A DNA stretch of 64,000 bases from Patescibacteria group bacterium (GCA_963169855.1 CAUJCN010000002.1:267288-331287); one strand, 5' to 3'; shown: positions 22,652-42,550, numbered from the stretch's first letter. The notes: a model not told the origin generated them from the letters alone. A program made the numbers and translations.

Positions 22652-24598
22652 CTATAAAGTCCAAGTCGAAAGATTTCTAAATCTTGACTCTAAAGAGTTA
22701 ACATCTTTTAGATCCATGTTATCGATTCTTTTATTAGCGTAGTAAATGAATTCAGGATGATACAGGAATACAACAGGTGCATCGTCTGCTAACAACGCTT
22801 GAAATTCCAAGTAGCTATCTTTTCTTCTTTCTCTATCTTCTCTAGGATCCAACTTCCTTGCAGTTTCCAATATATTATCTACTTTCGAAACTCTTATCAC
22901 TGTCCTATTTCCATTGGCGTCTTCTCCAACTTGAACAGTTTCAACGCTTCCTTTATATCCTGATAAGTTTAATCCTGGAGTTTTTTCCTGACTGCTATGG
23001 AACAGTTCGTACCTATCTGGATCGATAAAAGTGTTCATTCCGTATAGAATTACATCGAAAAGCCTTGGTGACAAATATTGGTTGTTAATCTCTTCCAATG
23101 ACCAACCTGCAGGTGCATTTGCTCCATTTTGTTGACCCGGAATCTCCCTTCTATCGATCACAACTTTTACCCCTATTTGTTCTAGATCTCTTTGAATGCT
23201 TCTTCCAACATTTACTCTATCAAAACTATCCACGAAGAAAAGATTAAACGACATTAATTCTCCCGCTGAATTTGTTCTATATTCATCTCCATTTCTAAAT
23301 TTCCAATCAGTTGCATCTAAAAGTTCCGAAGCCTTTGCTTTATTGTAAGTTGCCCAACCCGCTGCAGGATTAAAGAATTCAGACTTGGAGGAAATTGGAC
23401 CTAGAGCCTCCTCTCCTGCTCCCTGCAGAGCATTCTCTACTAATTCTTGCCTATTAATTGCGTAAGAAATCGCTTTTCTAACATTAGTATCCAGCAAGAA
23501 ACTCGGACCAATTGAAGTTCCATCCGGTTTTTTCCTCAAATTAAAATACAACCCCCAGAATTGATTTACCAAAACTGGGCTGTTAAATTGCTTAATATTG
23601 TTAAATCTATCTATATCTTGATTGTACTGAGTGGTGGACGCTGCAAATGTATGAATAGCTCCAGTTTCTAACGCGACTATAGCTTCTTCGAAAGTTTTAA
23701 ACATTCTGAATTGGATTTTTGAGAATGTCATTGTTTCTGGCTGATAGTAATTTTGATTGAAATCCAATGTAACAACGCTGCTATCAATAGATGCAAATCT
23801 ATATTTTCCTGTCCCTACTGGTTCTCTGAACAAGCTTGGCTGAGCTGTATCAATTACTGCAATTGTGATATCTCGTGCTCGGTGTTCTGGAATTATTTTG
23901 ACAGAGATCAGCTCCAAGAAGTTGGACAAAATTGGGTTGTCGCTTGTTTGATTACATGAAGTTCCATCTGCAGTTCCTCTAGTACAAATTCTAATCGTAT
24001 AATCGTCAACGATTTCCCACCTCATCTGCTTGATAGCTTTAATATATGCTTCATCTCTATTTTCAATCGAAGATAATAACTCTAAAGTTCTAGCAACATC
24101 TTTTGATGTAAAAGGAATTCCATCATGCCACCTGACGTTTTTTCTTAAATTAAACTGATAGTCAGCTCCTTCTCTAAATCTAATGACTTCTTCAGCTAGA
24201 ACATTGGTGATCTTAGGTGTCCAAGTTCCTTCCTCAGGCTGGTCGTATTCGAATCTTATTAATGGCTCGTAGACAAGTTCTGTAATATCTCTTTCTAGTT
24301 GAACTCCTGATGGAATAAGTGGATTAATTCTATTAAGTTTTTGTAGTGCTCCGTTAGAGTCAGAACCCATAATAACTCCTTCTACTAAGAATGTATTATC
24401 AGATCTAACAACAGTAAATGAGAATCCTCCAGCGATAACAACAATAAGTATTGCTGAAATCACATGAGATTTTGGAGAAAATTTTTTATAGAAGGCTTCG
24501 AATCGATTAAAATATACAACAAGGTAGTCTGGATAATTCCACACCAATTCTCTGATCGAATATAGAGTTTTTTCTATTCTTGATAGTATTTTAACCAT
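22652..24598 (-). CDS. ABC transporter substrate-binding protein, family 5 (peptide/nickel-type)
   Basis: 648 aa. N-terminal TM anchor. SBP_bac_5-like body. Confidence 0.65.
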   Translation of the reverse strand: MVKILSRIEKTLYSIRELVWNYPDYLVVYFNRFEAFYKKFSPKSHVISAILIVVIAGGFSFTVVRSDNTFLVEGVIMGSDSNGALQKLNRINPLIPSGVQLERDITELVYEPLIRFEYDQPEEGTWTPKITNVLAEEVIRFREGADYQFNLRKNVRWHDGIPFTSKDVARTLELLSSIENRDEAYIKAIKQMRWEIVDDYTIRICTRGTADGTSCNQTSDNPILSNFLELISVKIIPEHRARDITIAVIDTAQPSLFREPVGTGKYRFASIDSSVVTLDFNQNYYQPETMTFSKIQFRMFKTFEEAIVALETGAIHTFAASTTQYNQDIDRFNNIKQFNSPVLVNQFWGLYFNLRKKPDGTSIGPSFLLDTNVRKAISYAINRQELVENALQGAGEEALGPISSKSEFFNPAAGWATYNKAKASELLDATDWKFRNGDEYRTNSAGELMSFNLFFVDSFDRVNVGRSIQRDLEQIGVKVVIDRREIPGQQNGANAPAGWSLEEINNQYLSPRLFDVILYGMNTFIDPDRYELFHSSQEKTPGLNLSGYKGSVETVQVGEDANGNRTVIRVSKVDNILETARKLDPREDRERRKDSYLEFQALLADDAPVVFLYHPEFIYYANKRIDNMDLKDVNSLESRFRNLSTWTL

Positions 24599-24824
24599 TT
24601 GTTAATGCGATCGCTATTGCAAGTGCGGCAAATAGAAATCCCAAAACTAAAGTAGAATTGTAAAGTAATGCTTCTAAACCTCTTCGAGATCTGTAGGATT
24701 CTCCTCCTGAAGTTCCCCCGAAAACTGTTCCAAGCCCTCCGTTTCTATTCTGCATTAAAATGCTGATGGAAAGAAGGAAAGCAACTACTGCTTCTGCGTA
24801 TTTAAATATAGTATTAATATCCAT
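24591..24824 (-). CDS. secG: preprotein translocase subunit SecG
   Basis: 77 aa with two TM helices. 'LLSISILMQNRNGGLGTVFGGTSGGESYRSRRG' matches the SecG consensus. Confidence 0.75.
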   Translation of the reverse strand: MDINTIFKYAEAVVAFLLSISILMQNRNGGLGTVFGGTSGGESYRSRRGLEALLYNSTLVLGFLFAALAIAIALTNG

Positions 24825-24906: not shown

Positions 24907-24981
24907 TTAAATACAAAAAGTCCTTGAAATGATTTTTAAAATCTATATGATATCTATTAGGTTAATTTTTGCACTTTTAAC

Positions 24982-25377
24982 TTGGAAAAGCACTACAACG
25001 AAAAAACTAAACGTTCATGGGTTCTATGGACACTTGTAATTATAATTTTAGGCATCTTAGCTTTCTTCCTTTTACGACCAAATAACGTAATCATCAAAGG
25101 TAAAATCTTACCTAATCAGCAAGGGAATTTCACGTCTGGATATTATGATTTTAGGATTAAAGTCGAAAGCAAAGATGTAGAGAAAGAGCAAAAAACTTAT
25201 TTTGTTTCTGATCATTCAGATATTTCTGTAGACTCGCAAGGAAGGTTCGAAATTTCTCAAGAGATTCCACGAGGAATAGATAAATCTGTAGCTGCTGATC
25301 TGATTGTTTGTTACTCCTCTACAGCAACAAATAGACCAGATGGAATTACTCGTGATACCGAAAGTGTTGATACCTGA
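24982..25377 (+). CDS. signal-anchor ORF, probably the N-terminus of the giant surface protein, separated from it by one in-frame TGA
   Basis: TTG start. 'KTKRSWVLWTLVIIILGILAFFLL' is a positively charged n-region plus hydrophobic core. It ends at TGA 25375-25377, and the next codon (25378) opens the 2499-aa ORF in the same frame. Confidence 0.5.
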   Translation: MEKHYNEKTKRSWVLWTLVIIILGILAFFLLRPNNVIIKGKILPNQQGNFTSGYYDFRIKVESKDVEKEQKTYFVSDHSDISVDSQGRFEISQEIPRGIDKSVAADLIVCYSSTATNRPDGITRDTESVDT

Positions 25378-28300
25378 TTGAATTCAGAACCAGAAATTTA
25401 CGATACTAATCTTTGTGCTATTGATTTTAGTTCTACAGCTCCAAACAATCTACTTACAGAAATAATAGGTGTAAGACAAGTTTTGGTTTCTGGAGTTTGT
25501 AATGGCGTAAATCAGGATGCGCCTGCAGGACCGGATGAGGATGAACAGACTCTATCATTTAATCCATTAACAAACACTTTATCAATTTTGAATGGAAATT
25601 CTGTAGTTATTCCTTTAGGAACAGGTACCACTGTTCAAAATAATTCATACCCTACAAATATTTCAAATCCAATTTCTGGATTAACTCAAGTAAATACTGG
25701 TAACGGATTGATGGGAGGCCCAATTACTTCTTCAGGGACAATCGAAGTTGATGCGCCAACTTGTGCTGGAACAGATAAACTTCAATGGAATGGAACAGCC
25801 TTTGTATGTTCTCCTGATATTATGGGGGGTGGAGTAAACAGCGTTACTGCAAGTGGACCAATTCTATCTTCAGGAGGAACTACCCCAAATATTAGTTTAG
25901 CCGCTTGTCCTGCTGGACAGTCTTATGTACACGATGGATCGAACTGGGTTTGTCAGGCTGCACCTACTGCGATAACTGTACAAAACGGGCTAACCGATAT
26001 AGGAGGTGGAATTGTCGAACTTGGTGGTTCGAACCCACTACTACATGACACTGATATTATAAGTGATGGAAATAACTTGAACTTTACAGGAACAGGAAGA
26101 TTTGGAATTGGAACAAATACACCAGAATTTAAGCTTGATATAGATAACGATGGAGTAAATGGTGGTGGAATAATTGCCAGGGGAACTTTCGGAAGTGGAG
26201 CAACTTTAACAACAAACGGTGCTGGGGAAAGATTGATTTGGGATCCTGCAACAGGAGCATTCAGAGCAGGTGGTGTTTCGGGAAATCAATGGGATTTAGC
26301 AAACATCGGGATATACTCTTTTGCTGCAGGACAAGATAATTTAGTCTCTGGAAGTCATTCAGCTGCTTTTGGCTCTGGAAACAATGTTGCTGGGAACAAC
26401 TCTTTTGCCTCTGGAACAGCTAACTCTGTCCTTTCAAACTTTTCTAACGTATTCGGTTTAGCTAACACAGTCAATGGTGCATTTGCCACAGCTATGGGAT
26501 TATCTTCGAGTGCAACAGGAACTGCAGCCTTTGCATCTGGATCTAGTGCAGCTGCAACAGGGAATAATTCGGTCGCTATCGGAACATCTGTTAGTGCTAC
26601 TGCACAGTCCGCGATTGCAATGGGTGCTAACTCAACTGCATCAGGTCAAAGCAGTACTGCAATCGGATTCTTTAATAACGTCTCTGGTTTTAACTCAACT
26701 GCTGTAGGATTCAACAATCAATTAAACTCGGACAATGGATTTGCATTTGGATATCAAAATACTCAGGCAGCCGCTATAGGTGATGCATACCTTTTTGGTC
26801 TAGCAAACACAGCTAACTCAGGAACTGCTGTTCTTGTTGGTACTAACAACGTGGCAAACGGTGGTACGTCAGTTGTAGCAGGATTTCAGAACACTACTAA
26901 TGGTCAGTTTTCAAATATTTTTGGTAGATTATCTACAACGACTGGAGATTTTTCTAGCGCTTTCGGAACAGGATTAACTTCTCAAGGATATTCTCAAACT
27001 GTTTTAGGAAGATACAATGTAGCCTCAGGTACACAGGGTTCATTAGTCCAAACTGACGAAGGTTTAGTTTTTGGAAATGGTACTTCTCTAGGAAACGAAA
27101 GTAATGCATTCAGTATTAGCTGGCAAGGAAGAACGACAATGTATGGAACTTCCGCAATTGTTCCAGTTTCTCCTGCTGCAGCAGGATCAATCTACTTTGA
27201 TGCAAACACAAATACTTTCCAATGTTCAGAAAATGGTGGCGCATACTTTGACTGTTTTGGTGGATCTGCAGCTGGTGTTACCGATATTAACGGAGAGTCC
27301 GGTTCGATTACATTAAGTGGTGATTCTCCTATCACAGTTGGGAACGTTGGACCTGCTTTTAGTGTAGGGTTGGCTCCTTGTGCTTCTAACCAAACTTATG
27401 TATATGTAGCGGGTAATTGGCTATGTTCTGATGAAAATCTTTTGTATTATGATGAATCAAATAATGTCCCTGGTGTAGAGGCTGCGGCAACAGGAACTAA
27501 TGCAGTCGCCATTGGAGACAGTGCTACTGCAGGCGGTAACTTTTCTACTGCAATTGGTTGGGCTACATCTGCAAATGGTTTTAGATCACAGGCTTATGGA
27601 ATGGCTAATACTGCTGGAGCTACAGCTACAAACTCACAATTGTTTGGGTTTAATAACAATATCGATACCTTCGATACTGTCTCGGTTGGTTGGAGCAATA
27701 CATCTACCAATGGAGGCGAACTCAATATTTTTGGTAGAAACAATACTGTGAACGGGGCTGATTCTACTGTAGTTGGTTATAACAATACGACTACATTTGG
27801 ATTCTCTGAACAGTATTTATATGGAAGTAATCTTACTTCTTCTGCTGACAATACACATGTTTTTGGAAATGGAATAACAAATAATGTTGCTAACTCTTTG
27901 ATGGTTGGACCAAACTCTTCAAATATTCTTTCTATGCTGTCTACAGGAGAAATGGGATTTGGAAATATCGATCCTACAAGTAGAGTTGATATTTCTGGAG
28001 CTCTTACAATGAGAGGTATGCCTGCACCAGGCTTATCACCTTTAGGACAAGGTCGAATATACTTTGATTCTACAGCTAATGAATTCTTATGTTCAGAAAA
28101 TAATGGTGCATATTTTGACTGTTTTGGCGCTGCAGCTGGTGTTACTTCTGTAACTGCTGGTTTAGGAATGGTTAATTCTGGAACAGCTAGTGATCCTATA
28201 CTGGATGTTCAGGCTGTTAATGCAGTAAGAATCGATGCTACTAACGATGCAGTTATGTTTGGAGGACCCGTTAACTCTGGCTTAGCTCCTTTAATTGAAA

Positions 28301-31300
28301 ATACTCAGGTTCCCCAAGCTGGATTTAGTTTAGCGTTCTTAGGAAATACAGCTGGAGACATGTTTGGAATTGGAACTAACTCGACAGGAACGAACCTAAA
28401 TGAAAGGCTGGATGTAGTTGGTAACATAGAAAACATAGCTGATGTTTCATTAAATCCTGAGTTTATTACAACAACTGCCACAGCAAGCAGTCCAACTTCT
28501 ATTCAAGTAGTTGGGAATAGAGCTTATGTTACTAACCAATCTTCAAGTAACATTCAGGCATTTGATGTTTCTGATCCAAGTACTCCAACCTCAGAATACA
28601 TTATTGGAACAAACTCACAGTCACTCAATTTTATAGCTTCTTCTGGAAGATATATTTATGGAGCAGGCCGAACATCGGGGGTTTTCCAGGTAATTGATAC
28701 ATACAATAACGGCGTAGCCTTTAATACAGTCAAGGGAACTCTAGTATTTACAGGATTTCAAATTACAGGTATAGCTCAATCTGGAAACAATGTAATAGTG
28801 ATTTTAGACGATTTAGCTGCTGGGAATAACGACTTTTTAGCTATAGTTGATGTTTCTAACCCTTCATACCCAAGAGAGACTGGAAGAATTGCATTTGGAG
28901 TAAACACCAACCCAAATGCCGTTGATGTCCAAGGTGGAATTGCTTATGTAGCTTTGAGTAGCCCTACAAACCAAGTACGAGCTGTTGATGTAAATGTTAC
29001 AGAAGCTCCTACACTTTACCCAGTCTACAGTGCGCCTATCTGTAATGCATCGAATACAATCAAGGTTTATGGTAAATTTGCATTTGTTGGTTGCGTTGGA
29101 TCTGCGCAAATTTCAATCATTGATATTAGTAACCCTAATGTTGCAGCTCCCGCAACAGTTGCAACTATTAACGCAGGAGGACCAGTTTCTGAAGTAGAAG
29201 TTTCAGGAAGATACTTATTTGCTACTGTTGCTGGAATTGATGAGTTAAGAATGTGGGACATAAGATTACCTTCTTCTCCAACATTGATTGGAAATGTTTC
29301 AACCGGGGGAACAACACCTAGTTCACTTGATGTCTCTGGAAGGCATGTATATGTGACAAACCAAGTAACCAACACAATGGCCGTTATTGATATTCACGGT
29401 ATAGAAACAACTAGCATTCTTGCTCACAGTGTTGAAAGTGGGCAATTAAATGTGGATGGTGAAACTAATTTATTTGGGAGAGTTAACATTGCGAGCAACG
29501 CTTCAGTTGGATCAAACCTACATGTCGGTGGAGATGTTGGAGTCACAGGAAACATTTCGACACTAATAAATGGATCTATGACTCCTTCGCGTATAGGAAA
29601 TTTAGACTTAGCTCCCGGTAACAACACTGACTTTGTTTTAAATGGGAATTATGCTTACATTATAGATCAGACAGGAAGTGCTCTTCGTGTAATCAATATC
29701 AGTAATCCTGCATTGCCTGTTGCTGTTGGAGTTCCTATATCAACTGGCTTAGGTAGTTCTCCAAGAAGTATTGCAATGGCTGGAAGATATGCTTACACAG
29801 CAAACGATAACTCCTCTATTACGATATTTGACATCACTAACCCTAGTGCACCTGTTTTGATATCAACTTTTGCTATACCAACCACTACTGGACTCAGAGA
29901 GATAATTGCAACAGATAGATATCTTTACGCTACAGGATTAACCAGCAATGCTGTGTTTGCAATAGATGTTTCTAACCCACGAGCTCCTCGTATTGTTTCG
30001 ACTGTCACAGTCTGTACTGATCCTACTAACTTGGCAATGCAGGAAAAATATCTTGTAGTGGGTTGTTCTCAGGCAATTGCTGATAATGTACAAATATGGG
30101 ACTACTCCAACATATTATCGCCATCATTTGTTAGCTCAATAAGCGTTGCAGCTCCCGGTCCATTAGCTGTAGTCGATTTAGATATTCAAGGTAATTTTAT
30201 CTATACTGTAACTACAAATGGAATACAAATTCATAATATATCTACTATAACTACTCCTGTTACCGACTTTGCTTCTGGAACTTTTTTTGGTGGAGCTCCA
30301 GTTGTAATGAGCTCCGTTTTAGCAAACGGTAGATACGTTTACGCTACAATGGGAAATGGACCTGCAGGAAATGCTGTTTGGTTTGCAGTAGATATAACAA
30401 GTTCTGTACTTCCTCGAATTGTTTCAGCTACATTCTCAACTACAGCTATGCATAACAGAGCTTTGATTGTTCGAGGTAAGAACGTGTACACTGTTAATAA
30501 CAATCCACTCAGCAACTCAATTGAAATCTTTGACGTTAATGGAGTTGAGACTTCCACTCTTGTTGCACACAGTGCACAGGCTGGGCAGCTCGTTGTTCAA
30601 AATGATGCAAGCATTGTGGGAAATCTAACAGTTGCTGGTGGAACAACTTTTGCGGGAAATGTAGGAGTAAACGGGGATGCAACTATTAATGGGCAGCTAA
30701 ATGTAACAGGAAGAAATCCAGTATCAGTTGGTCTTACGAATGTCGGAATGTCTCCATCGGCCGTTACTACATCAGGAAGATATCTCTACATGGGAAGTTT
30801 CACTGGAGGAAGAATTTTTGATATAAGTGACCCTACAGCTCCAATTTTACTCAGCTCACCTGCTATGCCAACAACTTCGAGGGCAATTATTCAGGGTCAC
30901 TATATTTACACCTCATTTGGAACGACTTTTACACTATCATCAATCGCAAATCCGAATACCCCTGTAGTTCTATCGAATCTGACTTTGTCTGTCGCTAACA
31001 GGGCTTTTGATATCCAAGGTAAATATGCCTACATGATGAAGTCTAATGGTGAAATGGATATTATTGATATTTCATCAACACAAACAATGAATATAATCTC
31101 TTCTACTATGATAAGTCCTGGAACTATGAATGACATTAAAGTTAGAGGAAGATATGTATATATTACCCACCCAACTTCAACATCGCTGATTATCTATGAT
31201 ATTAGCAACCCTTTAGCCCCAGTATCTGTTGGAAGTGTAGTTCTACCAAGCGTAGGAAATAGGATTGCATTACGGGAATCATACGCATATGTAACACATA

Positions 31301-32877
31301 CTAATGGATTCTACACAGTCGACATTACTAATCCAGCAACTCCTACTTTAGTACATACTGTCGCGGGCTTAGGAGGAGCTCCAGTAACTCCAGAAATCAG
31401 TGGAAAAAACCTGTATCTATTCGGAACAACTGGTGTTGGATTAAGAGTTTACGACATATCTAGTCCTGCTGTACCACAGTTTGTCGGAACAACTTCAACA
31501 GGATTTCAAATCCCTTCAGGAAAGATTCAAGGAAGATATGCCTATGCTTCTGACACAACAAACACCGCACTTCGGGTATTAGATCTTGGTGGAGCTTACG
31601 TTCAGCAGTTAGAAGCTAGCGGAGTTGAAACCGATAGTGTTGTGGCAAGAGGAGATGTTACTGCAAATAGCGGTATATTTAAGAACGGAATTAGTGTAAG
31701 TAACTCAATGAATGTACTAGGTGATTCAAATGTTAGAGGGAAACTAACAGTTGGATTAAATAATGCTGGTCCGGCTTCCGGAGTATTCCAAGAAGGATCT
31801 GGATACGCATTCTCTGTAATGGCTGGACCAAACCCAGTATCTACAGAAAACGCGATTGCCGCGTTTACAAACCTAAACCCAGCCAACTCTTTGAACAATA
31901 CCGTAATGAGACTAAGCATGGGAGCTACTCCTACTGGAGGAAACACAAACCCAAGATTTATTAGATTCTTTGCAGGATTATCTACAGGAGACACAGGAGG
32001 AACTGCAGTTGGAAGTATTAGTTTGAATGGTGCTTCCGGAGTATCATTTAATACATCTGGAGCTGACTTTGGAGAATACTATACAATCGTTGACGATGCA
32101 CAGGTTGGGGAAATTGTAGCTGTAACAAGAGATGGAAACCGAAGAGGAGTAAAAGGAGAAAAGATCCTAGGAGTTGTTTCTGATACTGCAGGTTTCGTTG
32201 GAAACAGTATCGAATATACTTCTGAAGGAGAAATTCCAGCTGATCGAAAGATTGTAGGATTGTTAGGACAAATGAAAGTTAAAGTAAACGGCGAGTCTGG
32301 AGCAATTGAAGCAGGAGACTTTGTAGCACTATCCTCTACTGCTGGAGTTGGAATGAAAGCTACTGCAAACGGAATGGTATTAGGGAAAGCTATGGAATCA
32401 TCAACTTGCGATACAGCTGGGTGCGAAAGCACAATTATGATTGCTGTACAGCCAACTTGGTATGTTCCAGAATTAGAGGGATTATTAATGGGAGAATCGA
32501 ATGGTGACTCTGAAGAATCAGATACACCTATATCATCTATTTCTATGGAACAAATTGTAAGTTACTTAACCGAAAATACCTTAGAAATTTTAAAGACAAA
32601 CAACTTAACTGTAAACTCAAGATTCAATTTAAACGGCAGTCTTTACCTTAGTGGAAACAATACTGGAAGAACTGTAATTCCTGTTGGTCAAACATCTGTT
32701 ACAGTTAACTTTGCTTCGGTGTTCGAAGGTTTGCCAAATGTTGTATTAACTCAGAACAGCTTTATTGAGGGAAAGTACAGAGTAACTAATGTAACAAATA
32801 CTGGATTTACAATTGAACTAGAAAATATACAGGTTTCTGATGTAGAATTTACGTGGTTAGGTTATGGTACATTATGA
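25378..32877 (+). CDS. giant cell-surface protein: Hep_Hag (YadA-head-like) repeats + three LVIVD beta-propeller blocks + phage-tail-fibre-like intramolecular chaperone domain + H-type-lectin-like C-terminus
   Basis: 2499-aa uninterrupted ORF, Gly/Ser/Thr/Asn-rich.
- Hep_Hag-like 'NSVAIGTSVSATAQSAIAMGANSTASGQSSTAIGFFNNVSGFNSTAVGFNN', seen twice.
- Duplicated module '(S/R)IYFD..TN.F.CSENGGAYFDCFG' at 27185-27265 and 28056-28133.
- More than 20 LVIVD-type blades, e.g. 'GRYAYTANDNSSITIFDITNPSAPVLIST'.
- Three homologous spacer modules, e.g. 'HGIETTSILAHSVESGQLNVDG', 'NGVETSTLVAHSAQAGQLVVQ' and 'GGAYVQQLEASGVETDSVVARG'.
- C-terminal 'GADFGEYYTIVDDAQVGEIVAVTRDGNRRGVKGEKILGVVSDTAGFVGNS' is Peptidase_S74/G2-like.
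- C-terminal 'FASVFEGLPNVVLTQ...YRVTNVTNTGFTIELEN...FTWLGYG' is H_lectin-like. Confidence 0.85.
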   Translation: MNSEPEIYDTNLCAIDFSSTAPNNLLTEIIGVRQVLVSGVCNGVNQDAPAGPDEDEQTLSFNPLTNTLSILNGNSVVIPLGTGTTVQNNSYPTNISNPISGLTQVNTGNGLMGGPITSSGTIEVDAPTCAGTDKLQWNGTAFVCSPDIMGGGVNSVTASGPILSSGGTTPNISLAACPAGQSYVHDGSNWVCQAAPTAITVQNGLTDIGGGIVELGGSNPLLHDTDIISDGNNLNFTGTGRFGIGTNTPEFKLDIDNDGVNGGGIIARGTFGSGATLTTNGAGERLIWDPATGAFRAGGVSGNQWDLANIGIYSFAAGQDNLVSGSHSAAFGSGNNVAGNNSFASGTANSVLSNFSNVFGLANTVNGAFATAMGLSSSATGTAAFASGSSAAATGNNSVAIGTSVSATAQSAIAMGANSTASGQSSTAIGFFNNVSGFNSTAVGFNNQLNSDNGFAFGYQNTQAAAIGDAYLFGLANTANSGTAVLVGTNNVANGGTSVVAGFQNTTNGQFSNIFGRLSTTTGDFSSAFGTGLTSQGYSQTVLGRYNVASGTQGSLVQTDEGLVFGNGTSLGNESNAFSISWQGRTTMYGTSAIVPVSPAAAGSIYFDANTNTFQCSENGGAYFDCFGGSAAGVTDINGESGSITLSGDSPITVGNVGPAFSVGLAPCASNQTYVYVAGNWLCSDENLLYYDESNNVPGVEAAATGTNAVAIGDSATAGGNFSTAIGWATSANGFRSQAYGMANTAGATATNSQLFGFNNNIDTFDTVSVGWSNTSTNGGELNIFGRNNTVNGADSTVVGYNNTTTFGFSEQYLYGSNLTSSADNTHVFGNGITNNVANSLMVGPNSSNILSMLSTGEMGFGNIDPTSRVDISGALTMRGMPAPGLSPLGQGRIYFDSTANEFLCSENNGAYFDCFGAAAGVTSVTAGLGMVNSGTASDPILDVQAVNAVRIDATNDAVMFGGPVNSGLAPLIENTQVPQAGFSLAFLGNTAGDMFGIGTNSTGTNLNERLDVVGNIENIADVSLNPEFITTTATASSPTSIQVVGNRAYVTNQSSSNIQAFDVSDPSTPTSEYIIGTNSQSLNFIASSGRYIYGAGRTSGVFQVIDTYNNGVAFNTVKGTLVFTGFQITGIAQSGNNVIVILDDLAAGNNDFLAIVDVSNPSYPRETGRIAFGVNTNPNAVDVQGGIAYVALSSPTNQVRAVDVNVTEAPTLYPVYSAPICNASNTIKVYGKFAFVGCVGSAQISIIDISNPNVAAPATVATINAGGPVSEVEVSGRYLFATVAGIDELRMWDIRLPSSPTLIGNVSTGGTTPSSLDVSGRHVYVTNQVTNTMAVIDIHGIETTSILAHSVESGQLNVDGETNLFGRVNIASNASVGSNLHVGGDVGVTGNISTLINGSMTPSRIGNLDLAPGNNTDFVLNGNYAYIIDQTGSALRVINISNPALPVAVGVPISTGLGSSPRSIAMAGRYAYTANDNSSITIFDITNPSAPVLISTFAIPTTTGLREIIATDRYLYATGLTSNAVFAIDVSNPRAPRIVSTVTVCTDPTNLAMQEKYLVVGCSQAIADNVQIWDYSNILSPSFVSSISVAAPGPLAVVDLDIQGNFIYTVTTNGIQIHNISTITTPVTDFASGTFFGGAPVVMSSVLANGRYVYATMGNGPAGNAVWFAVDITSSVLPRIVSATFSTTAMHNRALIVRGKNVYTVNNNPLSNSIEIFDVNGVETSTLVAHSAQAGQLVVQNDASIVGNLTVAGGTTFAGNVGVNGDATINGQLNVTGRNPVSVGLTNVGMSPSAVTTSGRYLYMGSFTGGRIFDISDPTAPILLSSPAMPTTSRAIIQGHYIYTSFGTTFTLSSIANPNTPVVLSNLTLSVANRAFDIQGKYAYMMKSNGEMDIIDISSTQTMNIISSTMISPGTMNDIKVRGRYVYITHPTSTSLIIYDISNPLAPVSVGSVVLPSVGNRIALRESYAYVTHTNGFYTVDITNPATPTLVHTVAGLGGAPVTPEISGKNLYLFGTTGVGLRVYDISSPAVPQFVGTTSTGFQIPSGKIQGRYAYASDTTNTALRVLDLGGAYVQQLEASGVETDSVVARGDVTANSGIFKNGISVSNSMNVLGDSNVRGKLTVGLNNAGPASGVFQEGSGYAFSVMAGPNPVSTENAIAAFTNLNPANSLNNTVMRLSMGATPTGGNTNPRFIRFFAGLSTGDTGGTAVGSISLNGASGVSFNTSGADFGEYYTIVDDAQVGEIVAVTRDGNRRGVKGEKILGVVSDTAGFVGNSIEYTSEGEIPADRKIVGLLGQMKVKVNGESGAIEAGDFVALSSTAGVGMKATANGMVLGKAMESSTCDTAGCESTIMIAVQPTWYVPELEGLLMGESNGDSEESDTPISSISMEQIVSYLTENTLEILKTNNLTVNSRFNLNGSLYLSGNNTGRTVIPVGQTSVTVNFASVFEGLPNVVLTQNSFIEGKYRVTNVTNTGFTIELENIQVSDVEFTWLGYGTL

Positions 32878-33560
32878 ACAAAACTCCAACGCTTACATTA
32901 AACTCAAAAAAGCCTTCATCGATGCCTCCATCAAAAGGTTCAAGAAATCTTAATCAAATTAGAAACTTGTTCATTTTGGTTTTAGTTTTTATTCTTGGAG
33001 GAGCAACTATTTATTTTTACCTGAACTCAAGAAGTACAGGAAATGGAAACCTATCTGATTCTGAAATTCAGGTAATAAAAGAGAAGCTTACAAAGAATAT
33101 TATTGTCGAAGGAATTGAAAATTATGATGTTGGTTTGATTAAAGATATTGAAGCTCTCAAAGAAAGTAATCCACTGTTTTTTAAGAATGCGGAAAATGGT
33201 GATGCATTGATAGTATCTACTACACAAGCAATTATTTTTCGACCTGGTAACGAAATGATTATTAATGTTGGTCCAATTACAGATGATAGATCAAAAGTTA
33301 GAATAGAACTTAGAGCTACTTCGGATTCTGCAAACTTAGACGTAATTGAAAGAACAATTGAAGAATCAAATTCAAACTTTATAGTTGTAGGAAAATCAAC
33401 AACTACCACTACAGGAATAACCCCTGGGATTGTTCTTCAGTCTTACTTCGACGATGCTGGAATTAATCAACTTTCTTCTATATTGAATTTACAAATCAAG
33501 GATTCACTGCCTCAAGAAGAAACAAACTTCTCTAGTGCAGATATTTTGATTTATCTATAA
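32874..33560 (+). CDS. membrane-anchored protein translationally coupled to the giant surface protein gene
   Basis: ATG 32874 overlaps the TGA stop 32875-32877 (ATGA). 'MNKTPTLTLNSKKPSS...IRNLFILVLVFILGGATIYFYL' is a signal anchor followed by an extracytoplasmic domain. The track ORF starts 21 nt earlier, inside the giant ORF. Confidence 0.55.
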   Translation: MNKTPTLTLNSKKPSSMPPSKGSRNLNQIRNLFILVLVFILGGATIYFYLNSRSTGNGNLSDSEIQVIKEKLTKNIIVEGIENYDVGLIKDIEALKESNPLFFKNAENGDALIVSTTQAIIFRPGNEMIINVGPITDDRSKVRIELRATSDSANLDVIERTIEESNSNFIVVGKSTTTTTGITPGIVLQSYFDDAGINQLSSILNLQIKDSLPQEETNFSSADILIYL

Positions 33561-33561
33561 A

Positions 33562-34017
33562 CTACACTTGAATACCGTAAGCCAATTTTAATTCTACTGG
33601 TAGATTGTAATCTGCTATCCAGACTCTTCTGTCTCTTTTTTCGATTTTTACAGGTAATTTTAGAGGTTCTGGTGTACCAAATTTAAATAGTGTTGCGTAT
33701 CTTTTCCCTGACATTCTTTTAGTAACTCTTTCAACATGAGCTTCATCTACCATCCCTATTTCTTCCATAACATTCAAAAAAATATCTCTAATTTGATCAG
33801 GATGTATGATTTCAAGAAATTCTACTTCTGTGACTGGAATTCTGCCAACAACTGGACCTCCGGTTTCTTTAATGTAAATATAATCTCCAGCATTCAATTT
33901 TTTATAAGGAGCAATTCTGTTATAACTCCATTTAATATCTAAAGTTTTCTCTCCGTTCATCATAAGATCTATGTAATCTCTGCTTCGATTTCTGGAATAA
34001 ATTGCTAAATGATTCAT
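33562..34017 (-). CDS. ASCH (PUA-like) domain protein
   Basis: 151 aa. 'DLMMNGEKTLDIKWSY...LNAGDYIYIKETGGPVVGRIPVTEVE' resembles the ASCH beta-barrel (GxKxxExR-like motif). Confidence 0.45.
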   Translation of the reverse strand: MNHLAIYSRNRSRDYIDLMMNGEKTLDIKWSYNRIAPYKKLNAGDYIYIKETGGPVVGRIPVTEVEFLEIIHPDQIRDIFLNVMEEIGMVDEAHVERVTKRMSGKRYATLFKFGTPEPLKLPVKIEKRDRRVWIADYNLPVELKLAYGIQV

Positions 34018-34018
34018 A

Positions 34019-34264
34019 CTATTTGAACTTAATATTATCTTGTATTATTTTAATTCTTTCGTGCAACTCTTGCATACGAATTGAAAAATCTACTGCAGAT
34101 CTATTTTCTACGCTTATACTAGCCATTGCATTCCCTATTTGACATGACTTATGAATATCGTGACCTTCTAATAAACCTGAAACAAATCCCGATCTCCACA
34201 TATCTCCTGCTCCAGTTGGGTCCACAACTCTTGTATTGAAAGCAGAATTTCCATCGTATTAGTC
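34019..34264 (-). pseudogene. remnant of a PfkB-family carbohydrate kinase (C-terminal ~80 codons only)
   Basis: Contains PfkB signature 2, '...NSAFNTRVVDPTGAGDMWRSGFVSGLLEGHD...' (DTxGAGD). Only about 33 nt separate it from the next gene, so the N-terminal ~220 aa of a normal PfkB kinase are absent. Confidence 0.55.
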
Positions 34265-34837
34265 TTCAAAAATACGTCTGTACTCTTTTGCAACCAATCT
34301 TCTCATTAACTCGGCTTTGCTTATATCAAGTTCTTCACAAAGTTGTTCTAGTTGTTTTAGAGTTGTTGATCTTAAAATAATGTTGAATCTTTTTTTTGGA
34401 GGTTCAAGATTTTCTATGTATTTTTCCAATACGAGTGCCAAATCTTTTACTGTCTTATAGGTTTTTACTGTAATCATATCTTCACCATATGAAAGCAAGT
34501 TATCTGGGAAATTTTTATACTCTTCTTCTCTTATGACACAAATGACAGGAACTTTATTTTCCAATGCCATTATTGTTTGCAAGAAAACAGTCCTCGATTT
34601 TTCAGAGAACTCCGCTACAATAAAATCAACAGATCTTATAAGTTTATTTGTCCCATCTACAAGTGTTTTCATTTTTGCTTCGAGATCGCTTTGCTCCATT
34701 GGATAATTATCAACTAACCACGGCTGATACATTTCTAATCCCATACCTCTTAAAGTAGAAGCAATAGTTTTGTATGTATCGATATTTCTATCTAGGTTTT
34801 TAATTGTAGCTACTAAAGCAACCTTATTTGGTCTCAT
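34259..34837 (-). CDS. nucleoside 2-deoxyribosyltransferase-like domain fused to C-terminal ribbon-helix-helix (CopG/Arc-like) domain
   Basis: 192 aa. The N-terminus 'KVALVATIKN...LVDGTNKLIRSVDFIVAEFSEKSRTVFLQTIMALENKVPVICV' resembles the NDT/flavodoxin-like nucleotide-binding fold. The C-terminus 'FNIILRSTTLKQLEQLCEELDISKAELMRRLVAKEY' is an RHH motif. Confidence 0.4.
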   Translation of the reverse strand: MRPNKVALVATIKNLDRNIDTYKTIASTLRGMGLEMYQPWLVDNYPMEQSDLEAKMKTLVDGTNKLIRSVDFIVAEFSEKSRTVFLQTIMALENKVPVICVIREEEYKNFPDNLLSYGEDMITVKTYKTVKDLALVLEKYIENLEPPKKRFNIILRSTTLKQLEQLCEELDISKAELMRRLVAKEYRRIFED

Positions 34838-35645
34838 CTTTATAAAAGTAATTAAATATTAGATAGTTATAGAGTCTATGTGGAAGAAATCTTTTAGCCC
34901 ATAAGATTCTTCTGTCTCTTTTCTGAAAAAAGTAGTTATCTCTTGGATTATTCATTAACCAGATTAACTCTCTAGCAGCTTGCTCTGAAGTAACATAATC
35001 CTTAAAAAAGAATCTAAAACGTCTTTTCCAAGATTCATATAAAGTTGAGTAAGCTGTTTGTGCAATGTTACCACTTTCCTTAATATTTTTTCCAAAACTG
35101 CTATAAACACTTCCTGGCGAAAATATACTGATTTGAATTCCGAAACCTCTTACTTCATTTCTTAGTACGTTACTTATCTTATCCAAAGCACTTTTCGTTG
35201 CTGCGTAAAATCCCAGAGTTGGTGTATCGACAACTGATCCAATCGAACTCACATTAATAATATGTCCGCTATTACTTTCTCTCATTGAAGGTAGTACTTT
35301 TTGAATTAGCTGAATGGGTGCAATAACATTAACGCTTAATTGCGACTGCATTTCAGCAAGATCCATATCCTCTACAGTACTACGAAAGGCAAAACCTGCA
35401 TTGTTTATTAAAATATCTATTTTGTTATAATCTTTTAATACTTTATCTAGATTTTTAGAAGCTCCAACAATATCATTCAGGTCGATTTCAAAGAATTTAT
35501 AATTCTTTACTGAAAATTCTTTTATATTGTTCCTTCCTATTCCTAGAAATAAGTAGTCAGAAAATTGCGAACACGCAATCCTTATGAAAGATTCACCTAT
35601 TCCACTACTTACTCCTGTTATTAATACAACTTTTGAGTAACTCAT
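34824..35645 (-). CDS. short-chain dehydrogenase/reductase (SDR)
   Basis: 'VVLITGVSSGIGES' (TGxxxGIG) and 'YAATKSAL' (YxxxK). Confidence 0.8.
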   Translation of the reverse strand: MSYSKVVLITGVSSGIGESFIRIACSQFSDYLFLGIGRNNIKEFSVKNYKFFEIDLNDIVGASKNLDKVLKDYNKIDILINNAGFAFRSTVEDMDLAEMQSQLSVNVIAPIQLIQKVLPSMRESNSGHIINVSSIGSVVDTPTLGFYAATKSALDKISNVLRNEVRGFGIQISIFSPGSVYSSFGKNIKESGNIAQTAYSTLYESWKRRFRFFFKDYVTSEQAARELIWLMNNPRDNYFFQKRDRRILWAKRFLPHRLYNYLIFNYFYKDETK

Positions 35646-36574
35646 AAACTTTTAGCTAGATCGTAAAGTATTCCACTTGAAATATTATTATTACTTGGAA
35701 CAATTATTCTACAATTTAGATACTCTGAAATCTGAAATATATTCATTAAGGCTTTATCAGCCGCCCACATATAGTATGGTTCTTTTTCATACATTGGCAT
35801 TCTATCTTCGTAGGAAAGTGCGATAATCTTATCGTACAAAGGTCTTAGCTTTGCTACATCTATTGAGTAAGGATGATCTCCTTGCAATCCTTCTCTATCT
35901 TCCAAATCCACATTCATAGTTTCTAGAAATTCAATAATGTTTGTAGTTCCATAAACAATCACCTTTGGGTTTCTTTTAGATTCACCTAAACCTTTTAGTT
36001 CCGTTCTAACATAGTCAATCGCTGTTTGTAATTCTTCTGCAGCAGGATGATGACTTTCTGAAAATTCTTCCTGCATAAAATAGGTTCCGCTTTTGAATAA
36101 GTATGTTTCGTGAATCTTGGTATTTTCTCCTATTACAACTTGAACACTTCCTCCTCCAATATCTGCTACAGCTATCTCTTGATCTGGAAAGTCTTTAGAA
36201 ACAGATTCAAATAAAAGTCTTGCTTCATCTTTTTGAGATAGTACTTCTAATTTAATTCCAGTAGATTCTTCTATTCTATTTAAAACTTCTTCAGAATTAG
36301 TGGCTTTTCTAATCGCTTCAGTAGTAACTGCTAAATACTTCTCTACTTTATATTCAGTCATTTTGTCTTTGAACATGTTCAAAGCTTCTATTGTTTTAAG
36401 GATTGATTTCTCGATAATCATGTTATTCGTTTTAGGTAAATCTCTACCCATTACGGTTAATTGTTTATCTTTGTACAGCACTTTAGAATTAAAGTTTTCA
36501 TCGAATTCTCGAATTTCGAATTTCGATTTTAGAGTCCCAACATCAATGACTGCGACAATTTTTTTAGATTCCAT
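35642..36574 (-). CDS. Ppx/GppA family phosphatase (exopolyphosphatase / pppGpp phosphohydrolase-like)
   Basis: 310 aa with an actin-like ATPase fold: 'VAVIDVGTLKSKFEI' (phosphate 1) and 'IAVADIGGGSVQVV' (phosphate 2). Confidence 0.6.
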   Translation of the reverse strand: MESKKIVAVIDVGTLKSKFEIREFDENFNSKVLYKDKQLTVMGRDLPKTNNMIIEKSILKTIEALNMFKDKMTEYKVEKYLAVTTEAIRKATNSEEVLNRIEESTGIKLEVLSQKDEARLLFESVSKDFPDQEIAVADIGGGSVQVVIGENTKIHETYLFKSGTYFMQEEFSESHHPAAEELQTAIDYVRTELKGLGESKRNPKVIVYGTTNIIEFLETMNVDLEDREGLQGDHPYSIDVAKLRPLYDKIIALSYEDRMPMYEKEPYYMWAADKALMNIFQISEYLNCRIIVPSNNNISSGILYDLAKSL

Positions 36575-37865
36575 AGAGCATTCTTTTTAATAAATAAAAT
36601 CTTTTCCCTATATCCGCGTTTAGATTTGAACCATAAACAGCATTCAAAACTACATCAGGAAATAGATTGAAAGTTATTCTAAAATCTAACCCTCGGTCGA
36701 TGGTAATTACTTCAAACTTTGTATTGCTGAATTTTATTAATTTCAAAGCACTATTCAAATTTTCCAATCTATTGGGATTCTCTTTGGATTGAAGACATAA
36801 AACAACCTGATCTCCTATATAGTTCTCCCATTCCAGAACATCCTCAATAATATCTCTGACATCAAGACCAAAATATAGAGAGCTTCTTTTAAGGAATTCT
36901 TTGTCAAACTGTTCGTAATTGTCTCTATTTATATGCAGAAAAACTGATGAATTTTCCGGTATATCAGATTTTATTTCTGCCTGAATTTCTTGGAATCCAG
37001 TTAATGTAGAAGCAAAAATATGAACCTGTACGGGAATATGAGAATTGTACTCATTTAAATACTTTAGTACAGATTTCGTTGTATTTAAGTCTGTTTTTGG
37101 ACCAATTACACCTTCAGAAATATCAACATGTACAAGATCTACTCCACTTTGAAGAGCTTCATTTAAAGATTCGCGGTTTTTTTGATTAATGTCTAATGCT
37201 ACAAATCCAATTCCATTTACAACAGGTTTATCCGTATATCCTAACTTATGTACTAATTGTTTTAATTTTGTATAATTTATATTCTCAGTCTTACTTGCAT
37301 TGTCTGATTTGACAGAAGACTGAACATCAAAACCAATTACATTTAACTCTAGATAATTATCAATATTTTTAGCTCCAATTCCTCCAGCTAAAAATATTTT
37401 ATTTGAATCTATTTTTTGTAAAAGACTCATAGCATTTTCTTTACCAATTTCTAATCCTGTTCCACCCATAAATGATTTATCAAGGATTACATAATCTGCA
37501 TCATCTGATATAGTAAAACCTAATGATTGTGTAGATACGACTTGGAAAATTATTAATCCTTGCTCGAATTCTGTTCGCAGTGCCCTTATTTGTGGGTACG
37601 AATCTTCATAGTGTAGCTGTACACCATCAAACTCAAACTCCTTCACCAGTTTCTTAATTACAGAAATATCTCTTTCTTTTGTTACCAAAATAGATTTAGA
37701 TTCTTTATAGTAATTTTTAAGTTCTTTTGTGCAAGCTTTAATTTGATGCATTCTTAAAAAATCATTGTCAGAGATAAGGTGATAACCTAAAAATGGCACC
37801 TGCATTCTACCTAGCGTCCTAGTTTCATATATATTTTTAACATTACATACTTTTAATTTTTTCAT
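36564..37865 (-). CDS. two-TIM-barrel fusion protein: phosphoribosylanthranilate-isomerase-like N-half + ribulose-phosphate-3-epimerase-like C-half
   Basis: 433 aa. The N-half 'DGVQLHYED...DYVILDKSFMGGTGLEIGKE...FLAGGIGAKNIDNYL...GFDVQSSVKS' resembles TrpF. The C-half 'GVDLVHVDISEGVIGPKTDLNTTKSVLKYLNEYNSHIPVQVHIF' resembles RPE. Confidence 0.4.
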   Translation of the reverse strand: MKKLKVCNVKNIYETRTLGRMQVPFLGYHLISDNDFLRMHQIKACTKELKNYYKESKSILVTKERDISVIKKLVKEFEFDGVQLHYEDSYPQIRALRTEFEQGLIIFQVVSTQSLGFTISDDADYVILDKSFMGGTGLEIGKENAMSLLQKIDSNKIFLAGGIGAKNIDNYLELNVIGFDVQSSVKSDNASKTENINYTKLKQLVHKLGYTDKPVVNGIGFVALDINQKNRESLNEALQSGVDLVHVDISEGVIGPKTDLNTTKSVLKYLNEYNSHIPVQVHIFASTLTGFQEIQAEIKSDIPENSSVFLHINRDNYEQFDKEFLKRSSLYFGLDVRDIIEDVLEWENYIGDQVVLCLQSKENPNRLENLNSALKLIKFSNTKFEVITIDRGLDFRITFNLFPDVVLNAVYGSNLNADIGKRFYLLKRMLYGI

Positions 37866-38551
37866 TCAAAAATATTAATATTTAAGAAGTTAGCATCGTA
37901 TTTAGCTTTAAAGAAAACAGCGTTGATATTATCGGAAAACTCTCTATCAATCAGGTCATCGTCTCCTATGTAACTTACAGATTTGAATTTAGTTTTCCCA
38001 GTACTTTTTAATAACTGATCAAAAGCAAATCGATTCGGTTTATCTACCAATACTCTATTCTTATACATATCTTCTTCTCCAATAATTATTTCGAAAAAGT
38101 TAATTAATCCTGTTTTATACAAATACGCTGAAATGATTGTTTTCCTTGATGATGAAATTATTGCCAAAACATTTTCAGTATCTTCAACCAAAGTTTCTAG
38201 AAAATCAATAATTCCATTTCCCAATCTTGCAACTGCGTTTTCAGTCTTATCTTTAAGAATTGATGTGATAGTATGGCTTTCTTTTATATCCATAATTCCT
38301 TTAGCGATACTATTAATATCGGTTGTGTTAAAGTAACTTATAAGACTCTCGAAATCTTCTCTGCTTCTTGTTATTCCAGATTGGATTCTTCTATAGCTAT
38401 CGAATCTTTCTTTAAGACCTTCTTCATAAGGAAGAAATGCATTAAGTCCTCCGTGGATATTTAATTGTTTCATTGTCTTTTCCCAACCTTGTCGGTGGTA
38501 GTCAGAACTTTTTGCGATTGTTCCATCAAAATCGAATATTATTAGGTTCAT
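37862..38551 (-). CDS. HAD-superfamily hydrolase (phosphatase)
   Basis: 'MNLIIFDFDGTIAKS' is HAD motif I (DxDGT). 'SYIGDDDLID' is a motif-IV-like element. Confidence 0.75.
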   Translation of the reverse strand: MNLIIFDFDGTIAKSSDYHRQGWEKTMKQLNIHGGLNAFLPYEEGLKERFDSYRRIQSGITRSREDFESLISYFNTTDINSIAKGIMDIKESHTITSILKDKTENAVARLGNGIIDFLETLVEDTENVLAIISSSRKTIISAYLYKTGLINFFEIIIGEEDMYKNRVLVDKPNRFAFDQLLKSTGKTKFKSVSYIGDDDLIDREFSDNINAVFFKAKYDANFLNINIFE

Positions 38552-39855: not shown

Positions 39856-39974
39856 AGGAAATATACCTTCTTATACATTTTTTGTATAAAATTTTTTATG
39901 TATTATACATGCTTTAGAAATATATGCAATACGCAAATCCTTTAAATACTGCAATTTTCGTAAATTTGGAAGAT

Positions 39975-41679: not shown

Positions 41680-41721
41680 TTTTAATTTTAATCACCCTAA
41701 TTATACATTAATTGTATAAAA

Positions 41722-42420: not shown

Positions 42421-42550
42421 TTTATTTGGTCCTAAATATTAGCATACATATTTTACATAGAGGAATTGATTTATTTATAATAACCACAAGGTTTTTTGAC
42501 GTTTTCTCGATCTGAGTTATAATTCCTATATATCTGTTATTAAATAGGAT

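What the first reader, a model, noticed from the sequence alone, without database searches (positions are those of the whole stretch)
24982..25380. Single in-frame TGA separates a signal-anchor ORF from the giant ORF
The ORF 24982..25377 encodes only a signal anchor plus about 100 aa. It ends at TGA 25375-25377, and the very next codon opens the 2499-aa ORF in the same frame. The giant ORF as it stands has no signal peptide and no ATG for its first 111 codons, although its domains are extracytoplasmic. The parsimonious gene is therefore 24982..32877 with one internal TGA.

Genome-wide UGA reassignment (code 25) is unlikely, because TGA terminates the M23 peptidase gene, the second XRE-HTH gene (675..1418), fbaB and the giant gene itself. 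Kilobase-long ORFs also lack in-frame TGA.

The remaining options are the following.
- A base-call error.
- A recent nonsense mutation, making a split pseudogene.
- Site-specific read-through or recoding of UGA, for example by near-cognate tRNA, which would give regulated low-level production of a very costly protein.
Basis: seen in the sequence. Interest (0 to 1): 0.7.

Follow-up and report, generated by a model that had tools for sequence, protein, structure and literature searches.

The report
Nonsense codon splits giant surface-protein gene
A single TGA stop sits where related bacteria have a cysteine codon, cutting a 2,631-codon membrane-anchored surface-protein gene in two; it is real DNA but most likely an ordinary, recent strain-specific nonsense mutation, not a recoding signal.

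Summary
ORF 24982..25377 (TTG start, membrane anchor, 131 aa) ends in TGA, and the next codon opens a 2499-codon ORF in the same frame.

A close syntenic ortholog (L024/P0055) and a distant one (P0029) each encode the whole protein as one uninterrupted ORF. Both have a Cys codon (TGC, TGT) exactly at the TGA position.

- **Base-call error is excluded.** Every contig that reaches the site has identical DNA with the TGA. These come from at least 8 sequencing runs of two accession series, and NCBI also holds both split proteins.
- **Code 4/25 is excluded.** 16 of 56 genes end in TGA, and no other ORF pair merges when TGA is read as sense.
- **Selenocysteine or programmed read-through is not supported.** There is no hairpin after the UGA, no Rfam hit, the stop context is the genome's normal one, and the stop is not conserved in orthologs.
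- **The gene shows no decay.** There is no other lesion, dN/dS is about 0.12 on both sides of the stop, and the window lineage shows no rate acceleration.

The best reading is a recent TGY-to-TGA nonsense mutation in this strain. Leaky read-through or reinitiation at the adjacent TTG may give residual product, but this is untested. Interest is low to moderate.

The parts
24591..24824 (-). secG, transcribed divergently from the giant gene; the synteny anchor
   Evidence: Pfam SecG on the called gene. The same divergent secG lies next to the ortholog in L024.
24924..24951 (+). Promoter-like site, TTGAAA-16 nt-TATGAT, upstream of the anchor ORF
   Evidence: 10 of 12 consensus match. Both boxes are largely conserved in L024 (TTGCAA ... 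TAGAAT). No plus-strand promoter-like site lies between 24982 and 25711.
24961..24981 (+). Conserved 21-nt leader (GTTAATTTTTGCACTTTTAAC) directly before the TTG start
   Evidence: 100% identical in L024, although synonymous sites of the gene are saturated.
24982..25374 (+). 5' part of the gene (codons 1-131): TTG start, membrane anchor (about residues 13-31), then a beta-rich domain
   Evidence: The N-terminus aligns with the starts of P0029 and P0055. The AlphaFold model gives a helix at 3-31 and beta strands at 34-111, at moderate confidence.
25375..25377 (+). In-frame TGA at codon 132, at the position of a conserved Cys
   Evidence: TGC in L024 and TGT in P0029. Cys is also present, 1-2 residues offset, in P0037, P0047 and P0048. 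It is the missing partner of Cys145. The TGA is on every contig that reaches the site.
25378..32877 (+). 3' part of the gene (codons 133-2631 plus TGA stop): Cys-loop fibre motifs, YadA-head-like repeats, many LVIVD beta-propeller repeats, Peptidase_G2-type autoproteolytic (IMC) domain, H-type lectin domain
   Evidence: Pfam, NCBIfam. About 59% identity to P0055. dN/dS is about 0.12. There is no further stop or frameshift.
32874..33560 (+). Downstream 228-aa gene whose ATG overlaps the giant gene's TGA (ATGA); syntenic partner
   Evidence: Sequence, gene calls, and the same overlapping 231-aa gene in L024.

Best explanation
24982..32877 is one gene for a protein of about 2,630 aa. It has an N-terminal membrane anchor and a giant extracytoplasmic fibre/propeller domain, and is probably an adhesin-like surface protein of a small-genome, Patescibacteria-like bacterium. 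In this strain a single base change turned the codon of a conserved, disulfide-paired cysteine (TGT or TGC) into TGA.

TGA is a normal stop in this genome. Ribosomes starting at TTG 24982 therefore mostly release a 131-aa anchored stub.

The remaining 2,499 codons can be translated in only two ways (inferred, not shown).
- Rare near-cognate read-through of the UGA, which would give small amounts of the anchored full-length protein.
- Termination-reinitiation at the abutting UUG, which would give an anchorless, presumably cytoplasmic and non-functional product.

The mutation is young. Nothing else in the gene has decayed.
For: Shown by tool results:
1. **One ancestral gene.** The fused translation is colinear over residues 1-2622 with P0029. 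It is also colinear with the syntenic single-ORF ortholog in L024, which shares the TTG start and the 21-nt leader.
2. **Sense codon in relatives.** The site is TGC in L024 and TGT in P0029. Cys is present in 3 further fragments. The next codon is ATA (Ile) in both full-length relatives, so TTG 25378 is not a conserved start.
3. **Cys pairing.** The gene has 19 Cys, mostly in close pairs. A Cys at 132 would pair with Cys145 and bring the total to 20.
4. **TGA is a true stop here.** 16 of 56 genes end in TGA. RsmH, M23 and IMPDH end where their Pfam models end. No other ORF pair merges under code 4/25.
5. **Not an error.** Identical DNA is found in contigs from runs ERR10655370/77/78/79/81/82/84 and SRR24928191. 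NCBI holds both split proteins, seen on a contig of up to 818 kb.
6. **No recoding signal.** The 101 nt around the stop fold no better than shuffles (z = +1.07). The best hairpin after the UGA is -3.6 kcal/mol, against -8.5 +/- 2.9 at random sites in the gene. Rfam gives nothing relevant. The TGA-T context is shared with other real stops.
7. **Recent.** There is no other lesion in 2,631 codons. dN/dS is about 0.12 overall and 0.14 in the 111 codons after the stop. The Tajima relative-rate test gives 145 versus 156 unique changes (chi-square 0.4).
Against: - A random nonsense mutation in this gene would fall on a Cys codon only 2% of the time, or 4.6% of TGA-creating changes. A hit on a conserved Cys is therefore a notable coincidence, and it is exactly what a Sec/Cys or Cys-recoding site would look like.
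- The gene is otherwise perfectly intact and evolves no faster than its ortholog. That equally fits a gene that is still functional despite the TGA.
- All available copies are clonal (0 mismatches). No intact allele of this same strain was seen, and read-level polymorphism could not be examined.
- The rest of the genome could not be searched for Sec machinery or a suppressor tRNA.
Confidence: 0.75

Rival explanations
1. The split is tolerated or used. Ribosomes terminate at UGA and reinitiate at the directly abutting UUG (UGAUUG). The cell then makes a 131-aa membrane stub plus a separate 2,499-aa protein as two functional products.
For: - The gene's own start is a TTG, conserved in the ortholog, so UUG starts work here.
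- Stop/start overlaps (ATGA) are common in this genome, including at the giant gene's own end.
- The NCBI and Logan gene calls list two proteins.
- The downstream ORF is intact and under purifying selection.
Against: - Both full-length relatives are single chains, with Ile (ATA) at that codon.
- The break removes one Cys of a conserved pair.
- The 2,499-aa product has no signal or anchor, whereas 9 of 12 related giant proteins begin with a hydrophobic signal or anchor.
- If selection had favoured reinitiation, ATA to ATG is one step. TTG needs two.
Confidence: 0.08
2. Programmed, regulated low-level read-through of this UGA by a near-cognate tRNA (Trp or Cys). It would keep a costly protein at low abundance.
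For: - The gene is intact with no rate acceleration.
- Basal UGA leakiness is general in bacteria (established knowledge).
Against: - The stop is absent from the closest ortholog and from the distant one, so it is not a conserved device.
- There is no downstream structure.
- The TGA-T context is the same as at ordinary gene ends in the window.
- No suppressor tRNA is in the window.
Confidence: 0.08
3. The UGA encodes selenocysteine, or SelB-type Cys recoding, replacing the conserved Cys: a Sec/Cys homolog pair.
For: - The TGA aligns exactly with Cys in orthologs, which is the classical selenoprotein signature.
- A random nonsense mutation would hit a Cys codon only 2% of the time.
Against: - No SECIS-like hairpin lies within 75 nt after the UGA. 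The region has less hairpin potential than 98% of control positions in the same gene.
- No tRNA-Sec is in the window. No SelA, SelB or SelD is among the 45 window ORFs scanned against Pfam.
- The Cys looks like a structural disulfide partner in an extracytoplasmic fibre, not a redox centre.
- The TGA is not conserved in the closest ortholog.
Confidence: 0.04
4. Sequencing or assembly artefact: the true base makes a Cys codon.
For: The site differs by one base from the ortholog's codon.
Against: - The TGA is on every contig that reaches the site, assembled separately from at least 8 runs of two accession series, and NCBI holds both split proteins.
- The site is not in a homopolymer or repeat.
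Confidence: 0.02

Closest known systems
Nonsense-interrupted (split) genes and young pseudogenes of large surface or adhesin proteins in bacteria
   Same: - A single in-frame stop lies in an otherwise intact, long gene.
- Orthologs are uninterrupted with a sense codon at the site.
- One base change explains it.
- Annotation pipelines call two CDSs.
   Different: - No sign of relaxed selection or further decay is seen yet.
- The stop falls on a conserved Cys.
- The allele is the only one seen in all samples.
Bacterial selenoprotein genes (UGA plus downstream SECIS hairpin, read by SelB and tRNA-Sec)
   Same: An in-frame TGA aligns with Cys in homologs, and the reading frame continues.
   Different: - There is no SECIS-like hairpin.
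- The TGA is not conserved in the ortholog.
- The protein is a structural extracytoplasmic one, not an oxidoreductase.
- No Sec machinery was seen (window only).
UGA reassignment in Gracilibacteria/Absconditabacteria (code 25) and Mollicutes (code 4)
   Same: The genome is low-GC, apparently small and CPR-like. Some automatic gene calls on short contigs even read through the TGA.
   Different: TGA ends 16 of 56 genes at the expected protein ends, and occurs in frame only here.
Giant Patescibacteria 'tail fiber domain-containing' / LVIVD-repeat surface proteins
   Same: The domain set is YadA-head-like repeats, LVIVD propeller repeats and a C-terminal autoproteolytic chaperone-type domain. Named relatives come from Patescibacteria, Saccharimonadia and Magasanikbacteria MAGs. 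An N-terminal signal or anchor is the rule.
   Different: Here the anchor is separated from the body by the stop. The N-terminal Cys-loop domain is found in only a handful of sequences.

Membership tests
Gene disrupted by a nonsense mutation (young pseudogene or null allele) | Orthologs encode one uninterrupted protein colinear with both fragments | tested here: met
   P0029 is colinear over residues 1-2622. The syntenic L024 ortholog is a single ORF.
Gene disrupted by a nonsense mutation (young pseudogene or null allele) | A sense codon one substitution away at the homologous position | tested here: met
   TGC in L024 and TGT in P0029, against TGA in the window.
Gene disrupted by a nonsense mutation (young pseudogene or null allele) | The stop codon is a functional terminator in this organism | tested here: met
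   16 of 56 genes end in TGA. RsmH, M23 and IMPDH end where their Pfam models end. Only this pair merges under code 4/25.
Gene disrupted by a nonsense mutation (young pseudogene or null allele) | Relaxed constraint or further lesions downstream | tested here: not met
   There are no further stops or frameshifts. dN/dS is about 0.12. The relative-rate test gives 145 versus 156 unique changes. This fits a very recent event but does not prove loss of function.
Bacterial selenoprotein gene | In-frame UGA aligned with Cys (or Sec) in homologs | tested here: met
Bacterial selenoprotein gene | SECIS stem-loop immediately downstream of the UGA | tested here: not met
   The best hairpin is -3.6 kcal/mol, against a control mean of -8.5. 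The shuffle z-score is +1.07. There is no Rfam hit.
Bacterial selenoprotein gene | selA, selB, selC and selD present in the genome | not testable with these tools
   Only 64 kb of the genome is available. The window has no tRNA-Sec, and no SelA, SelB or SelD among the 45 ORFs scanned against Pfam.
Programmed stop-codon read-through | The stop codon and its context are conserved among orthologs | tested here: not met
   The closest ortholog has TGC ATA in place of TGA TTG.
Programmed stop-codon read-through | A stimulatory 3' context or structure | tested here: not met
   TGA-T is a common terminator context in the window. No structure is present.
Genetic code 4/25 organism | TGA frequent inside conserved genes and not used as a stop | tested here: not met
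LVIVD-repeat / YadA-head-like giant surface protein with autoproteolytic C-terminal domain | Pfam LVIVD, YadA_head and Peptidase_G2 (IMC) matches above the curated cut-offs | tested here: met
   LVIVD 172 bits, YadA_head 46.6 bits, Peptidase_G2 29.7 bits.

The most novel reading that the evidence does not exclude
The UGA at codon 132 is decoded site-specifically as Cys or Sec in a small-genome, Patescibacteria-like bacterium, without a canonical SECIS hairpin. The anchored full-length surface protein would then still be made, and the 'stop' would be a new kind of recoding site at a disulfide cysteine.
Probability: 0.04. Interest if true: 0.8.

Novelty: new member of a known kind. Interest (0 to 1): 0.25.

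Why it matters
The main value is for annotation. The 131-aa and 2,499-aa CDSs held in public databases are two halves of one anchored surface-protein gene. They should be annotated as a single interrupted gene.

Biologically, this strain probably lacks, or makes very little of, a giant host- or surface-contact protein that its closest relative keeps. That could matter for attachment in an episymbiotic lifestyle.

The TGA-for-Cys coincidence leaves a small, cheaply testable chance of an unusual recoding event.

Tried and rejected
- **Junction-spanning word-index protein search.** It found only short fibre-motif hits, and not even the query's own proteins.
- **Profile search with the N-terminal alignment.** It added no new members.
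- **Genome-contig scan with the full-length alignment.** The tool chose weak patterns and returned one irrelevant motif hit in a Gracilibacteria MAG (L017). The source organism therefore could not be named.
- **Metagenome scans.** A DNA pattern allowing any third base at the stop and the conserved central peptide both found nothing. The N-terminal alignment was too divergent for pattern design.
- **Apparent read-through alleles.** Gene calls of 273 aa and 132 aa on L021 and L023 looked like read-through alleles. The DNA is identical with the TGA, so this is only the gene caller's choice of code.
- **AlphaFold model of the N-terminal 215 aa.** It is confident only for the helix and the first beta domain. 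Residues 125-138 are below pLDDT 50, so it cannot say whether the stop lies inside a fold.
- **Literature searches.** Searches for the run accessions, for selenocysteine in CPR bacteria, and for giant LVIVD proteins gave nothing usable.
- **A second in-frame stop.** One was suspected at 34259, between the 192-aa ORF and the PfkB piece. It was rejected because the upstream ORF is an unrelated RHH protein.
- **Synonymous-site conservation after the stop.** It shows no clear peak.

Full report
**Observation.** The sequence is as described.
- A TTG at 24982 opens a 131-codon ORF whose product starts MEKHYNEKTKRS, followed by a 19-residue hydrophobic segment.
- The ORF ends at TGA 25375-25377. The next codon, TTG 25378, opens a 2,499-codon ORF in the same frame, ending at TGA 32875-32877.
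- The giant ORF has no hydrophobic segment anywhere. Its first ATG is codon 112.
- Pfam finds YadA-head-like repeats, many LVIVD propeller repeats, a Peptidase_G2-type autoproteolytic domain and an H-type lectin domain in it. It finds nothing in the 131-aa ORF.

**Genetic code.** TGA is an ordinary stop in this genome.
- Of 56 confident genes, 29 end in TAA, 16 in TGA and 11 in TAG.
- RsmH, the M23 peptidase and IMPDH end in TGA where their Pfam models end.
- Reading TGA as sense merges only the pair 24961..25377 plus 25378..32877. Every other TGA-terminated gene runs on for just 1-20 codons.
- The window has three ordinary tRNA genes and no suppressor or tRNA-Sec.

**Is the TGA real?** Exact-protein look-ups found the locus in Logan assemblies of ERR10655370, 77, 78, 79, 81, 82 and 84, and in SRR24928191.
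- Every contig is 100% identical to the window, and every contig that reaches the site has the TGA.
- NCBI holds both proteins. The longest contig recorded for them is 817,811 bp.
- Two short contigs carried gene calls that ran through the stop (273 aa and 132 aa). Their DNA is identical, so this is only the gene caller's choice of code.
- A base-call error is therefore excluded. All copies are clonal, so they say nothing about other alleles.

**Relatives.** A full HMMER scan of 1.84 billion representative proteins with a junction-spanning query found a few distant homologs that cross the junction in one chain.
- P0029 is 2,910 aa and carries an N-terminal anchor. P0037, P0047 and P0048 are fragments.
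- The fused window protein is colinear with P0029 over residues 1-2622.
- A profile search then found P0055, which is 2,344 aa and about 59% identical.
- Its contig L024 is syntenic: secG is divergent, then comes the giant gene, then an overlapping 231-aa gene.
- The L024 gene starts at a TTG preceded by the same 21 nt as in the window, and runs uninterrupted. Its N-terminal region is about 70% identical to the window's across the junction.

**The codon.**

| Sequence | Residues before site | Codon at site | Residues after site |
|---|---|---|---|
| Window | ...RDTESVDT | TGA | LNSEPEIYDTNLC... |
| L024 (P0055) | ...RDTQSIDA | TGC (Cys) | INNEPEIFDTDLC... |
| P0029 | ...KDGVLG | TGT (Cys) | IDKDNDIFDQALC... 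|

- The next codon is ATA (Ile) in both relatives, so the TTG at 25378 is an ordinary Leu codon and not a conserved start.
- The window protein has 19 Cys, nearly all in pairs 5-17 residues apart. Position 132 would be the partner of Cys145 and would bring the total to 20.
- One substitution (TGY to TGA) therefore accounts for the split.

**Recoding tests.** A TGA aligned with Cys is also the hallmark of selenoproteins, so this was tested.
- The 101 nt around the stop fold no better than shuffled sequence (z = +1.07).
- The best hairpin within 75 nt after the UGA is -3.6 kcal/mol, against -8.5 +/- 2.9 at 150 random positions in the same gene. Of those controls, 98% fold at least as well.
- Rfam gives nothing relevant.
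- No SelA, SelB or SelD is among the 45 window ORFs scanned against Pfam.
- The TGA-T context is shared with several genuine gene ends.
- The stop is not conserved in the closest ortholog.
- One point favours a Cys-specific mechanism. Only 2% of possible nonsense mutations in this gene, or 4.6% of TGA-creating ones, fall on Cys codons.
- I weigh this coincidence as insufficient against the missing SECIS and the non-conservation. It is why I keep a few percent on recoding.

**Age and constraint.**
- Window versus L024 gives pN of about 0.2 with saturated synonymous sites (pS about 0.7). dN/dS is about 0.12 overall and 0.14 for the 111 codons just after the stop.
- With P0029 as outgroup, the window lineage has 145 unique amino-acid changes and L024 has 156 (chi-square 0.4).
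- There is no other stop or frameshift in 2,631 codons.
- The stop is therefore either very recent, or the gene remains under selection despite it. It is not an old pseudogene.

**Transcription and translation.**
- A promoter-like TTGAAA-16 nt-TATGAT sits at 24924..24951. It is largely conserved in L024. No plus-strand promoter-like site lies inside the junction region.
- The genome lacks Shine-Dalgarno motifs, so the absence of an RBS before 25378 is uninformative.
- ATGA stop/start overlaps are common, including at the giant gene's own end.
- Reinitiation at the abutting UUG is therefore mechanistically plausible (inference). It would give an anchorless protein, whereas 9 of 12 related giant proteins begin with a signal or anchor.

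**Verdict.**
- The most likely mechanism is a recent nonsense mutation of a conserved cysteine codon in one clonal strain. It truncates an anchored giant surface protein to a 131-aa stub (confidence about 0.75).
- Residual full-length product by basal UGA leakiness, or an anchorless product by reinitiation, is possible but untested.
- Programmed read-through, a functional split, and Sec/Cys recoding together keep about 0.2. Artefact keeps about 0.02.
- This is a new instance of a well-known kind of event. Its main practical consequence is correcting the two-CDS annotation.

**Organism.** It was not identified. It is probably Patescibacteria-like.
- Named relatives of the giant protein come from Patescibacteria, Saccharimonadia and Magasanikbacteria MAGs.
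- The longest contig on record is 818 kb.
- GC content is about 35%, and there are no Shine-Dalgarno motifs.

Noticed in passing
window 33562..42517: This segment of about 8.9 kb has lower GC (0.30-0.32 against 0.35-0.40 nearby) and only minus-strand genes: a PfkB relic, an RHH protein, SDR, Ppx/GppA, PRAI-like, HAD, PRTase-like, kinase-like and GT2. It is absent from the syntenic ortholog contig L024. There the 231-aa gene is followed directly by homologs of window 42551..43587. It is an insertion here or a deletion there.
   Followed up: partly
window 34019..34258 (-): A 79-codon open stretch matches only the last 50 positions of the PfkB kinase model (246-296 of 302). It is a C-terminal relic of a decayed kinase gene. 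The 192-aa ORF upstream in the same frame is unrelated (RHH domain).
   Followed up: yes
window 27189..28127: The giant gene carries an extra 867-nt (289-aa) YadA-head-like module compared with the ortholog. The module ends (IYFD...CSEN.GAYFDCFG) repeat at 27189 and 28056 with 78% identity.
   Followed up: partly
window 24961..24981 and L024 377..397: The 21 nt directly before the TTG start (GTTAATTTTTGCACTTTTAAC) are 100% conserved with the ortholog, although synonymous sites are saturated. This may be a translation-initiation element for a non-SD, TTG-initiated mRNA.
   Followed up: no
whole window, gene starts: There are no Shine-Dalgarno-like motifs upstream of genes. Several genes have a TATAAT box within a few bases of the ATG (e.g. 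44300, 10573, 45592 on the minus strand), which suggests leaderless or very short-leader mRNAs.
   Followed up: no
L021 (SRR24928191) 3..821 and L023 (ERR10655370) 1..396: Logan gene calls on these short contigs read straight through the TGA (273 and 132 residues). The DNA is identical to the window, so automatic code selection (4/25) on short contigs can hide this stop.
   Followed up: yes
window 12734..13786 (-): This ORF combines an N-terminal PrgI-family segment (type IV secretion) with a C-terminal CarboxypepD_reg-like domain.
   Followed up: no
window 49234..49956 (+): A DsbD/CcdA-like membrane protein gives a weak match, below the Pfam cut-off. If real, it would be relevant to disulfide handling for Cys-paired surface proteins such as the giant one.
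   Followed up: no
tool behaviour: The word-index protein search did not return the query's own 131-aa and 2,499-aa proteins. The metagenome peptide scan did not recover the JGI contig of P0029, which contains the searched peptide. Negative results from these two tools are therefore weak.
   Followed up: no
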